64,000 nucleotides of DNA from Podarcis pityusensis (taxonomy: Eukaryota): assembly GCA_964106645.2 (NCBI GenBank), contig OZ067041.1. One strand, 5' to 3'. Position numbers: made by a program. Positions within the stretch are counted from its first letter, which is position 1; every line of letters begins with the position of its first letter. This document shows positions 58,401-61,400 of this stretch, piece by piece.

Positions 58401-61400
58401 GAGACAGAAGAGTGTGTTCCTGTTGCCGCTAATTTATTTCTCAAGGGCTTTTGACACCATTGGTCATTCTATGCTTCTGGAATGACTGTCTGAGCTGGGG
58501 TTAGGTAGCACCACTACCAATCTGACTTGGATGGTTGTTTTCAGAGGGTGGCGTGTGCTGGTTTTGACCTATGTGGCTTTGACCTATGTGGCTCAGCACC
58601 CCAATTCCTCAAGGGCCTCTTCTTCCCACATGAAGGAACCCAGACCCTACTCTGTGTGACCTCCTGTGGGAGGTGTGGAGGGTGAAAACAGGAGAAGGAG
58701 CCTTTTCCATGGTGGCCCCTCTCCCCTGTAAGTGGAGTGCTCTCTCCAGGGAGGCACACCAGTGCCTGTTTCTAGGTACCAGGCAGAGCCATTCTTATTC
58801 ACCTAGGCCTTGGGATCTTAATTTTAGCAGGGTGTGGTGGATCTGGAGCTGTTTTTATGTATGTTAGTTGTGTCTGCTGAGTGCCGATGGGGTGTGTTGG
58901 AACAGAATAGAAAAGGAATGGTTGGCTGACTAGGAGCACTCCCATGCTGCAGCATTTTGTTGCAGGACCCACTTGTCTCTGTAGGATCTATAGGTGTTAG
59001 TAGTGGAGACAGTTCTGAACCTCTGTTCTTCAGCCACATTGGGCTTCTGAGGATGGACATTGAGCACGAACAACAAGAGTTCAGCGCCACCTTATTTATA
59101 TATGTAACAACATTTTACATGAGACGCCCTTGGAAACGTTCTGCTTTTATAGCTACCACATGCCACTGGGAATCTTGCCTCTGACTTTGACGAGGTGTCC
59201 CATAGCTTAATTAATTCAAACTGTATTCCACGAGGCTTCAAGGAAAACAAATAAGGACAGTGCTGAAGGCCCTTTCCAGAGTAAACAGCGGCAAATACCA
59301 GATTAAAACTCCTCCTGAAACAGCTGTACTGAATGCACAGTTTGACGGGGAAAGGGAGAGGCATTCCTAGGTGGTACTCTCTGTGTCTTGACTTGGAGAT
59401 ATCAGTTACATGTCTCCTTTTCCTTCATCATGTCTGCTCAGGGCCAAACGAGATGTGATTGTTTCAGCTCAGTTTTGTGTATTGAAACACTCTGTAGGAG
59501 GAGGATTTTAATAGCAATGTGAGTGTAGTAGGTTGGGTGCCGACTCCACTATGTACCTATTGCTTACCTCTTCATGGACCTTCTCTCCAGAAGCTTTTTG
59601 CTTGGTTGTGTTTCAGAGCTTGGCTGTGGGGCTGGGGCGGGCAAGAGATGCGCCGTAATACCCAGATCACCAACTTTCATTAAGGAAAAAAAGAAAAAGA
59701 AAGTTTATGGCACTTTTAGAACCCAAGCTGTGAAGCAAAATGTGCAGCCCAATTGTGGAAACTCTAGAGAAGAAACACCCTTGCTTGCTTTTCACTTTTC
59801 CACCTTTTATTCTGGTCTTCCCTGGTGGAGAAGGGGTTGCTGCCCTATAGAAAACAATGCGTTTATTCAGGATTCGTGTGTAGCTGTGATTGGGGAATAA
59901 AGTGTTGTTGCACTTATTTTGGAGGGATTTTGTGTAGTGCACGTCAACCCTCAAATGTTGTCCAGTGCTATCCTGGTGTGTGCGGTTTATTTTTTTAGAG
60001 AGAGATGCAGCTGGCAGGGAGGGATGTGAAATTGATTATAGCAGCAGTGCCATTCATGAAGGGCTAGAGGTGTGTGAAAGGAGCAGGGAAAGAATTGCAG
60101 GTTTCAGCATTGAGTGGAAAGATGTTGCCTAGAAGAAAGTCGGATGTATAAATTGAAAAACAACAGAGAAATAGACCTGGAGCCCAATTTTCCCAGAGGC
60201 CATATCTACCCAGGTCTCTTTGCCACTACTCAGTCAACAGATCTAGTTTGATGCTAGCTATGTTTTATTTATTTCTTTGGAGTAATAAATTAACACTCTC
60301 CCCCCCGCCTCCCGCCCATCACCTTGCAGATGTGTAGGCAGAAGTTAATGGCAGATAAGCCATAGGTGAGGGAAAGTCTCTACTCAACACCTGTACATTG
60401 CTTTAAAGTCAGGCATGCACACTCTTTTCTCTCTCTGAGATTTGGACAGTTTACGTGTTTACAACATGCACAACCGTTGTCAGGACTAGATTGGCCCTGC
60501 ACTGGTGTGCAGCTGGCAACCTTTCAAATGACCTCTCTCATGTGACAGGCATAATCAGCTGAAATGCTGTAGTCCGTAAGACAGCCAGAAAAGTGTCTCA
60601 GACCCACAATACAACAAAGTTTTGAGATTTGTTTGTTGACAAACTTGTTTTCTTCATCTCTTAAATATAAATTGACAGGGAATATATTATCTTGAGGGAT
60701 GTTAAAATAACTTGTTTTTTTGTGGTGGTTTTTGTATGACCTTTCTAGTTTTTTGTTGTTGTTTTTTAAAATAAAATTTCTCACCCAAGTGTGTGCTCTC
60801 AACATTTTCCCTCTGTTATTGTACAGGAACATGCTAAAAAAGTCAGTTAATTTGGGAGCGGTGGTGAGGGGTGTGTGTGCATTGTGGATAGGGTTGTAGA
60901 CAGGAAATCCGAGGTTTTCTTCATGGTTTCCCCAGAGGAATGGGGTTTTGCTGGTAGAATGCATTGCAGGCCTCAGCCTAGGAAAGTCTGTTGGCTGCCA
61001 TGATACTTTGGCTGCGAGGGATATTTGCTCATAGGCGTTGCGTTTCCAAATGCCCTTCTTATCTGACTGCTTTATAGAAGGACTCCCCCTGGAACATTCC
61101 TCTTCTCTTCCCCCTCCCCAATTGAAACACTTCCCAGATGAATTGCGCCCCTCCCTCCTGTTTTCTTTAAGTGATAACCTCTGGTGTTAAAGATATCTCC
61201 ATAGCAACAAACAGTTTCTTTTCTCCACCCTTCCTGCCTTTCTCCAGGAAGTGGTTCTGCATTGTTTGGAAAACAAGGTCTGTGATGTAAATCACTATGA
61301 CAGGGCTGGCTGTTGCGTTGTAAAGAGACTTTAGGCACATTATTCTTTCAGTGATTTCCTTTGCTGGCTTGGACGGAGGATGATGCACAGAATGCTCTGC

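What the first reader, a model, noticed from the sequence alone, without database searches (positions are those of the whole stretch)
61248..61400. Exon 11 ends at a sharp breakpoint in mid-ankyrin repeat
Homology stops after ...AGCCV (~61319), just before the conserved LHEAC motif. About 5 of 24 codons are changed at residues expected to be conserved (Y>H, R>Y, N>R, Y>C, A>V); R>Y (TAT) fits CpG decay of CGT on both strands. By eye, the sequence after the break does not repeat any earlier part of the window, which argues against a simple tandem duplication starting inside it. It suggests a deletion or rearrangement junction, the end of a duplicated block, or a large insertion.
Basis: partly seen in the sequence, partly recalled or inferred. 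Interest (0 to 1): 0.75.

Follow-up and report, generated by a model that had tools for sequence, protein, structure and literature searches.

The report
Ancient spare exon that shortens BCOR
The "broken exon" is an old, partial second copy of the next BCOR exon lying inside an intron of a wall-lizard gene; a gecko has the same copy with the same stop codon, so it is probably an alternative gene ending that makes a shortened protein.

Summary
The window is the BCOR (BCL6 corepressor) locus of a Podarcis wall lizard, closest to P. lilfordi. It is not human. 61248-61319(+) encodes [24 protein letters not shown], which matches BCOR in 19 of 24 residues. All 5 changes are at otherwise invariant residues. 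Homology stops at 61319, and neither the rest of the exon nor any other copy is in the window.

The window's eight other coding exons differ from P. lilfordi BCOR at 1 of 1,414 residues, and every annotated Podarcis BCOR I saw has the canonical block followed by LHEAC. The real exon 11 must therefore lie beyond 64000.

The key result is a gecko RefSeq model, Heteronotia binoei BCOR isoform X5. It splices exon 10 to ...[32 protein letters not shown]. The window reads [32 protein letters not shown]: 25 of 28 residues identical, no gaps, same stop.

The element is therefore an ancient partial duplicate of exon 11, older than the gecko/lacertid split, and it is as conserved as BCOR itself (88%). 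[quoted passage not shown] No lizard RNA data or further genomes could be examined. Interest is moderate.

The parts
56658..56795 (+). BCOR constitutive exon 10 (46 codons, ...[18 protein letters not shown]). It supplies the 5' splice site used for both the alternative exon and the constitutive exon 11.
   Evidence: Per-exon translation is identical to P0002 residues 1391-1436, with AG before and GCAAGC after.
56796..56860 (+). GC (not GT) donor and conserved start of intron 10.
   Evidence: The donor reads GAG|GCAAGC. Read-through models begin with an Ala codon (GCN) and similar residues: rattlesnake P0399 ASIVSEDHYFKLEYGRCLVSH, cobra P0214 ASIVFEDHYFELEY, turtle P0152 ARIPFKYSELRCGSCLLSF. 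The window reads [21 protein letters not shown].
61216..61247 (+). Polypyrimidine tract and CAG acceptor of the alternative exon.
   Evidence: The sequence ttcttttctccacccttcctgcctttctccag lies directly before the first homologous codon. The boundary is the same as the constitutive exon 10/11 junction (LGYE|EVVL).
61248..61319 (+). Duplicated segment: a diverged copy of the first 24 codons of constitutive exon 11 (second helix and loop of ankyrin repeat 1, and the first 4 residues of repeat 2).
   Evidence: 19 of 24 residues match the canonical block. 22 of 24 match the gecko isoform X5 over the same stretch.
61320..61334 (+). Novel tail VKRL plus TAG stop. The first six bases, GTAAAG, also look like a weak 5' splice site.
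   Evidence: Searches show the sequence and frame. The tail VKRL and the stop position are identical in gecko P0240.
61335..61870 (+). Putative 3' UTR, with candidate polyadenylation hexamers ATTAAA at 61503, TATAAA at 61611 and 61630, and AATAAA at 61865. Which is used, if any, is unknown.
   Evidence: Hexamer scan. Such hexamers are common in A+T-rich intron sequence, so this is compatible with a terminal exon but not proof.
31274..56174 (+). Upstream BCOR coding exons: 31274-31359 (ATG), 33008-33086, 34731-37535, 38653-38836, 51915-52193, 52526-52879 (alternative acceptor at 52628, a difference of 34 codons) and 55846-56174.
   Evidence: Per-exon translation against P0002 gives 1 mismatch in 1,414 residues when exon 10 is included (the start of the second exon was corrected by one base). 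About 18 residues of P0002 between the third and fourth listed exons have no match in the readable window.

Best explanation
The element at 61248-61334 is an ancient partial duplicate of BCOR constitutive exon 11. It comprises the acceptor and the first 72 bases of that exon, and it sits in intron 10, 4.45 kb downstream of exon 10. It is kept by selection as an alternative, most likely terminal, exon.

When exon 10 (ending ...LGYE) is spliced to it, the reading frame continues for 24 exon-11-like codons, then four new codons (VKRL), then TAG. The transcript presumably ends at a polyadenylation site in the following few hundred bases.

The product is a BCOR of about 1,464 residues. It keeps the N-terminal and central parts of the protein, the Pfam BCOR region and ankyrin repeat 1. 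It lacks ankyrin repeats 2-3, the linker and the PUFD domain, so it should be unable to bind PCGF1 and join PRC1.1.

The 'sharp breakpoint' is where sequence similarity to exon 11 ends, four codons before the stop of this short reading frame. Downstream of the stop there is no coding constraint, so any further duplicated sequence would have decayed beyond recognition. The constitutive exon 11 lies beyond the window's end.

Shown: the copy, its boundaries, its difference from the annotated exon, and its conservation in a gecko model. Inferred: use as a terminal exon in Podarcis, the selection on it, and the functional consequence.
For: 1. Locus identity. The exon-4 frame is 98-100% identical to lacertid BCOR. 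The eight constitutive exons in the window match P. lilfordi BCOR at 1,413 of 1,414 residues.
2. The element matches only 19 of 24 residues, with changes at positions invariant in 349 of 356 models. All Podarcis models seen carry the canonical block plus LHEAC. It is therefore a second copy.
3. It has a strong acceptor exactly at the canonical exon-10/11 phase-0 boundary.
4. Gecko Heteronotia binoei BCOR isoform X5 (P0240, 1,464 aa) joins ...RAARLGYE to [28 protein letters not shown] and ends there. Isoform X1 from the same assembly (P0242) has the canonical exon.
5. Window versus gecko tail: 25 of 28 identical, no gaps, same stop. The two share the derived residues N>R and Y>C, A>V/I at the same position, and VKRL. 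Against the canonical exon the match is 19 of 24.
6. The two species sit on opposite sides of the Gekkota/Unidentata split.
7. Whole-protein identity between the two species is 1,509 of 1,715 (88%). The element, at 89%, is as conserved as the constrained protein.
8. Neutral simulation from the window's 87 bases. P(<=3 of 28 changes with frame and stop kept) is 1.9e-3 at 0.2 substitutions per site and 5e-6 at 0.3. For the non-parental part alone (codons 17-28 plus stop) it is 0.087, 0.015 and 4e-4 at 0.2, 0.3 and 0.5.
9. Pfam finds Ank and PUFD in the full-length protein but only the BCOR region in P0240.
Against: - Only two species carry the evidence, and the gecko evidence is an automatic gene model whose RNA support I could not inspect.
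- None of the Podarcis, Lacerta or Zootoca isoforms I could see contains the element. For the main lacertid cluster only 15 of 21 members were listed. I also saw P0003, P0004, P0005, P0006, P0364 and P0404.
- No other stored model has the variant tail: 1 of about 386 scanned. No cluster representative has it among 1,260 hits, of which the best 120 were listed.
- The strength of the selection argument depends on an assumed neutral divergence of at least 0.2-0.3 between gecko and lacertid, which I did not measure.
- Gene conversion from exon 11 could keep the first 16 codons similar without selection on this copy.
- GTAAAG at 61320 is a possible donor, so the exon might be internal rather than terminal.
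- The polyadenylation hexamers downstream are not distinctive.
Confidence: 0.62

Rival explanations
1. Dead relic. The element is a non-functional leftover of an old partial tandem duplication, drifting in intron 10. The gecko isoform X5 is an incidental or noise transcript picked up by the annotation pipeline.
For: Five replacements at residues that are otherwise invariant. No Podarcis annotation seen uses it. A lone ankyrin repeat followed by a cysteine-rich stub is not an obviously foldable ending (inference).
Against: The derived residues, the four-codon tail and the stop position are shared with a gecko with no indel. Conservation equals that of the whole protein. This is unlikely under neutrality unless divergence is below about 0.2 per site. 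After the split there were only 2 changes in the Podarcis line and 1 in the gecko line, against 4 before it (inference).
Confidence: 0.2
2. Internal exon rather than terminal exon. The 72-base segment is spliced out at the GTAAAG donor at 61320. It would then be a cassette that inserts 24 residues in frame before exon 11. Alternatively, through a donor further downstream, it would be a stop-carrying 'poison' exon that lowers BCOR output. A hybrid internal/terminal exon is a variant of this reading.
For: 72 bases is a multiple of three with no stop. GT follows the last homologous codon directly. Conservation of VKRL-stop could equally reflect a conserved splice site and flanking signals.
Against: The donor is weak: T at -1 and A at +5 against the consensus (sequence; consensus recalled). 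The only model that uses the exon reads through it to the stop. No stored model has a 24-residue insertion there.
Confidence: 0.12
3. This is the constitutive exon 11, cut in mid-exon by a deletion, rearrangement, large insertion or assembly misjoin, and already decaying.
For: Homology does stop in mid-exon relative to the constitutive exon. The remainder is absent from the last 2.7 kb of the window.
Against: The other exons are essentially identical to an annotated, complete Podarcis BCOR, which has the canonical exon. At least 7 nucleotide changes are needed for the 5 replacements in 72 bases (codons; inference). That is far more than the 1 in 1,414 residue difference elsewhere. The same truncated form with the same tail exists in a gecko alongside the intact exon.
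Confidence: 0.03
4. Ordinary exon/intron boundary. The constitutive exon simply ends at 61319, and LHEAC... lies in the next exon beyond the window.
For: AG precedes and GT follows the homologous stretch.
Against: The residues differ from every annotated Podarcis BCOR. Models that break in this region break at ...DGT(R), in 5 cases, and never after AGYCA.
Confidence: 0.02

Closest known systems
Alternative exons born by tandem exon duplication (recalled: Kondrashov & Koonin 2001; Letunic, Copley & Bork 2002; papers not read here)
   Same: A diverged copy of a neighbouring exon of the same gene lies in the flanking intron, with its own acceptor at the same phase.
   Different: Only the first 72 of about 167 bases are recognisable. 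The copy ends in its own stop, so it replaces the whole C-terminus rather than swapping one homologous segment.
Alternative last exons, intronic polyadenylation and hybrid internal-terminal exons (bioRxiv 10.1101/2021.05.27.446076 and 10.64898/2026.01.30.702498; only the search listing and abstract starts were seen)
   Same: An intronic exon with a stop, giving a C-terminally truncated protein. A donor-like GT at its end would allow a dual internal/terminal use.
   Different: The second abstract calls cryptic last exons 'poorly' something (the line is cut off in the listing). This exon is conserved between gecko and lacertid and is derived from coding sequence. Usage in Podarcis is not shown.
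The short BCOR isoform from alternative RNA processing, cited to reference 1 in the review PMC13703134 (passages read)
   Same: A naturally truncated BCOR made by alternative RNA processing.
   Different: By my recollection that isoform ends just after the giant exon 4. The window's exon-4 frame likewise runs on into the intron for a few codons, and 1,004-aa alligator models exist. The present form ends about 460 residues later, after ankyrin repeat 1.
Leukaemia-associated C-terminal truncations of BCOR lacking PUFD (bioRxiv 10.1101/2021.03.08.433705; abstract start seen in the listing)
   Same: The protein product lacks the PCGF1-binding PUFD. The abstract says such proteins unlink the RING-PCGF1 core from the rest of PRC1.1.
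   Different: Those are somatic mutations in human disease. This is a germline-encoded, conserved alternative ending in lizards, and its activity is untested.

Membership tests
BCOR (BCL6 corepressor) gene | Coding exons collinear with, and near-identical to, annotated BCOR of a close species | tested here: met
   Exon-4 frame 100% to P. lilfordi BCOR. Eight exons match at 1,413 of 1,414 residues.
BCOR (BCL6 corepressor) gene | Pfam BCOR region, three ankyrin repeats and a C-terminal PUFD | tested here: inconclusive
   All are present in the annotated protein P0002. In the window, only the exons up to the start of ankyrin repeat 1 are present. Repeats 2-3 and PUFD lie outside the window.
Exon derived by tandem exon duplication | Significant similarity to a neighbouring exon of the same gene, with the same 5' boundary and phase | tested here: met
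   19 of 24 residues, E=1.7e-7. The acceptor lies exactly at the LGYE|EVVL junction.
Exon derived by tandem exon duplication | Parent exon adjacent in the same intron-exon neighbourhood, and the copy of full exon length | tested here: inconclusive
   The parent exon is not in the window. Its position downstream is inferred from annotated proteins. The copy covers only 24 of about 55 codons.
Alternative terminal exon | Own 3' splice site and an in-frame stop | tested here: met
   Pyrimidine tract plus CAG, and TAG at 61332-61334.
Alternative terminal exon | Transcripts spliced from the upstream exon that end at a polyadenylation site within or after it | not testable with these tools
   The only evidence is the gecko RefSeq model P0240, which joins exon 10 to the element and stops there. 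Candidate hexamers exist. No RNA data are available.
Neutrally decaying pseudo-exon | No conservation beyond neutral expectation; frame and stop not maintained between distant species | tested here: not met
   25 of 28 identical with the same stop in a gecko. The simulation gives P<=1.9e-3 at d>=0.2, but the value of d is assumed, not measured.
Rearrangement or deletion breakpoint, or misassembly, in a constitutive exon | The affected exon is the one used in the species' normal protein | tested here: not met
   Annotated Podarcis proteins carry canonical residues at all five changed positions, and continue with LHEAC.

The most novel reading that the evidence does not exclude
Squamates, and possibly a wider set of amniotes, encode a regulated PUFD-less BCOR isoform through this duplicated exon. 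The weak, conserved GC donor of exon 10 and the conserved start of intron 10 would be part of a switch between the full-length PRC1.1 subunit and a short form. The short form would still bind BCL6 and other partners but could not recruit PCGF1-RING1, making it a built-in antagonist or a PRC1.1-independent corepressor.
Probability: 0.25. Interest if true: 0.6.

Novelty: new member of a known kind. Interest (0 to 1): 0.4.

Why it matters
BCOR is a core subunit of the Polycomb complex PRC1.1, and its C-terminal PUFD domain is what ties it to PCGF1. Truncations that remove PUFD are disease mutations in people. A germline-encoded ending that removes the same part, held nearly unchanged between a gecko and a wall lizard, would suggest a physiological short form exists in at least one vertebrate order. 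That would give a natural handle on what BCOR does outside PRC1.1.

For genome annotation, the case shows how a partial exon duplicate inside an intron can be mistaken for a damaged gene.

The practical weight is modest. The kind of event, exon duplication giving an alternative exon, is well known, and the use of this exon in Podarcis is not yet shown.

Tried and rejected
- the 47-residue stop-to-stop frame around the exon, searched against longer proteins, found only 2 word-sharing candidates and no hit. This is weak evidence, since even canonical BCORs were not collected.
- the last 48 residues of the gecko isoform were searched against proteins of 805-2,562 aa. It gave 1,260 hits. The 120 listed all scored 76 bits, like the canonical models, and none was a second variant-tail representative.
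- cluster listings of 20 clusters yielded only one variant-tail protein (P0240). Large clusters were listed only in part (15 of 21, 721, 135, 81, 57, 28, 27 and 25 members).
- a search of 61320-64000 for the missing half-exon found nothing.
- self-comparison found no repeat.
- Pfam on five neighbouring open frames on both strands and on the 47-aa frame gave nothing above noise (best E 0.08). Rfam on 56000-64000 gave 0 matches.
- Literature searches and passages of the review PMC13703134 and of PMC11448470 gave no description of this exon or isoform.
- My first idea, that 61319/61320 is just the normal exon-11 donor, was rejected.
- No structure or complex prediction was run, because none would bear on the question.
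Full report
**What the window is.** The window is vertebrate genomic DNA. It is CpG-depleted outside a CpG-rich block at about 20-29 kb. It holds the BCOR (BCL6 corepressor) gene on the + strand. The 951-codon open frame at 34698-37553 is 100% identical to BCOR of Podarcis lilfordi and P. muralis as the tool rounds it, 98% to Zootoca, and 68-69% to mammalian BCOR. The window is therefore a wall-lizard contig, not human, and no human-sequence restriction came into play. Translating each exon separately against P. lilfordi BCOR isoform X1 (P0002, 1,711 aa) gives these exact limits:
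- 31274-31359 (ATG)
- 33008-33086
- 34731-37535
- 38653-38836
- 51915-52193
- 52526-52879 (alternative acceptor at 52628)
- 55846-56174
- 56658-56795

There is 1 mismatch in 1,414 residues. P. muralis and P. raffonei differ more. About 18 residues of P0002 between the third and fourth of these exons have no match in the readable sequence. The window has one run of N, which I left alone.

**The observation.** 61248-61319 encodes [24 protein letters not shown]. It aligns to P0002 residues 1437-1460 with 19 of 24 identities, E=1.7e-7. They fall on residues that do not vary from sturgeon and carp to mammals. Of 356 stored models with ...LGYE, 349 continue directly with a block keeping all five residues (many are isoforms or close species). 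After 61319 the frame reads VKRL and then TAG at 61332-61334. Nothing resembling LHEACARGW... occurs in 61320-64000 or elsewhere in the window. The element and its flanks have no second copy in the window.

**It is not the constitutive exon.** Every annotated Podarcis BCOR that I saw (P. lilfordi, P. muralis, P. raffonei) has [24 protein letters not shown] followed by LHEAC... So do Lacerta, Zootoca and all other squamates seen. A locus whose other exons differ from that protein at 1 residue in 1,414 cannot hold, as the same exon, a stretch differing at 5 of 24. The five replacements need at least seven base changes in 72 bases (codons; inference). The real exon 11 must lie beyond 64000, which makes intron 10 longer than 7.2 kb.

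**It is not a normal exon end either.** Models that are cut short or run into intron in this region break at ...SAQDGT(R). These are cobra P0214, sea krait P0394 and P0395, and goldfish P0270 and P0287. None of the models scanned breaks after AGYCA; for example, 247 of 247 continue with LHEAC. The constitutive exon is therefore about 55 codons, and the element covers only its first 24. In protein terms the stop is four residues into ankyrin repeat 2 (Pfam Ank 1457-1485), at the junction of repeats 1 and 2.

**The decisive result.** Among the members of the gecko cluster is Heteronotia binoei BCOR isoform X5 (P0240, XP_060090110.1, 1,464 aa). It ends ...[36 protein letters not shown]. Isoform X1 of the same assembly (P0242) has the canonical exon. 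The window's frame, [32 protein letters not shown], matches the gecko tail at 25 of 28 residues without gaps and with the stop in the same place. Against the canonical exon it matches 19 of 24. Shared derived states are N>R, Y>C, A>V/I, the four new residues VKRL and the stop. At the R position the gecko has C and Podarcis has Y.

Both genomes thus hold two copies, and the second copy predates their common ancestor. Heteronotia is in Gekkota and Podarcis in Unidentata, one of the deepest splits in squamates. I recall an age of roughly 190-200 million years, but no call gave this date.

**Conservation.** After that split the element changed at 2 residues in the Podarcis line (Y5H, C17Y) and 1 in the gecko line (V24I). 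This takes the shared state or the parental state as ancestral, and is inference. Its 89% identity equals the 88% (1,509 of 1,715) of the whole constrained protein between the two species.

I ran a neutral simulation from the window's own 87 bases. The probability of at most 3 of 28 residue changes, with the frame open and the stop kept, is:

| Substitutions per site | Whole element | Codons 17-28 plus stop |
|---|---|---|
| 0.1 | 0.11 | 0.41 |
| 0.2 | 1.9e-3 | 0.087 |
| 0.3 | 5e-6 | 0.015 |
| 0.5 | 0 of 200,000 trials | 4e-4 |

The right-hand column covers the part that cannot be refreshed by gene conversion from exon 11. I did not measure the neutral distance between the two lizards, so the strength of this argument rests on the assumption that it is at least 0.2-0.3.

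**Anatomy and likely mechanism.** Exon 10 ends ...GAG and is followed by a GC donor (GCAAGC). The element lies 4.45 kb downstream. It is preceded by a long pyrimidine tract and CAG, exactly at the phase-0 boundary used by exon 11.

Splicing exon 10 to the element yields 24 exon-11-like codons, then VKRL, then a stop. The gecko model reads through the GTAAAG at the end of the homology, which suggests that the exon is terminal. Candidate poly(A) hexamers follow at 61503 (ATTAAA), 61611 and 61630 (TATAAA) and 61865 (AATAAA), but these are not distinctive.

The product would keep everything up to ankyrin repeat 1 and lose repeats 2-3, the linker and PUFD. Pfam sees only the BCOR region in P0240. 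Because PUFD is the PCGF1-binding domain (Pfam description; review passages), the short form should not assemble into PRC1.1. That is inference.

The sharp end of homology is then simply where a short reading frame nears its stop. Whether the original duplication ended there, or extended further and decayed in what became 3' UTR, cannot be told without the parent exon's DNA.

**Rivals.**
- A dead relic is the main alternative (0.2). It needs the gecko model to be noise and the shared tail and stop to have survived by chance.
- An internal exon, as a cassette or poison exon using GTAAAG or a later donor, is possible (0.12). The donor is weak, and no model shows the 24-residue insertion.
- The plain-boundary reading (0.02) conflicts with the same calls.

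**Comparison with what is known.** Exon duplication as a source of alternative exons, and intronic terminal exons that truncate proteins, are established kinds (recalled; listings). For BCOR, the review I could read in passages (PMC13703134) describes the 34-residue AF9-binding variants and one short-ORF isoform from the original BCOR paper. It mentions no ending in the ankyrin region. Full-text searches found nothing on such an exon:
- BCOR with ankyrin repeats, exon 10 and exon 11
- BCOR with isoform, PUFD and truncated isoform
- BCOR with intronic polyadenylation

The isoform exists in RefSeq as an automatic gecko model, so the sequence is in a database but, as far as these searches reach, is not discussed. 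I file it as a new member of a known kind.

**Limits.**
- No vertebrate genome or transcript collection was available. The parent exon, other squamates and RNA support therefore stayed unchecked.
- Paper supplements were closed. They could hold isoform tables that bear on novelty.
- All protein searches were made exon by exon or with stored database proteins.
- The output was cut at about residue 1,510, but its header gives the totals used.

Noticed in passing
window 56793-56860 (+): Intron 10 starts with a GC donor (GAG|GCAAGC), and its first 60 or so bases look conserved. Read-through gene models begin with an Ala codon (so GC) and similar residues: rattlesnake P0399 at 16 of 21 identical to the window, cobra P0214, and snapping turtle P0152 at about 11 of 19 with a two-codon gap. 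This may be a conserved splicing-control element next to a weak donor.
   Followed up: partly
window 37536-38652 (+): About 18 residues of the annotated protein P0002, between the giant exon and the next exon, have no match in the readable window. The window has one run of N, which I did not try to fill or look up.
   Followed up: no
window 37536-37553 (+): The giant exon's frame runs five codons past its GTGAGT donor to a stop (…ALQ VSSEA stop). Retaining this intron would give a protein of about 1,000 aa. Alligator models of 1,004 aa exist, and the review cites a short-ORF BCOR isoform. The link to that isoform is from my recollection.
   Followed up: no
window 52526-52627 (+): An alternative acceptor 102 bases into exon 8 accounts for the 34-residue difference between isoforms X1 and X3 (1,711 and 1,677 aa). 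This looks like the isoform-specific 34-residue AF9-binding segment described for mammals.
   Followed up: partly
window 5357-6246 (-): Open frames with reverse-transcriptase-like motifs (…YADDTQLY…, …RLNPDKTEV…) suggest a LINE fragment far upstream of BCOR. The motif reading is from recollection, and no family search was run.
   Followed up: no
window 61960-62010 and 25355-25401: (GA)n/(TC)n microsatellites. The one about 650 bases downstream of the element matches the CpG-island region only through this simple repeat.
   Followed up: yes
stored proteins P0125, P0127, P0133 (Rhineura floridana): Three worm-lizard BCOR isoforms carry a 21-residue insertion (WPPLTWSRGRESCNMMAPCLM) between ...LGYE and EVVLYC. 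This is another extra exon or extended acceptor in the same intron, unrelated in sequence to the element studied here.
   Followed up: no
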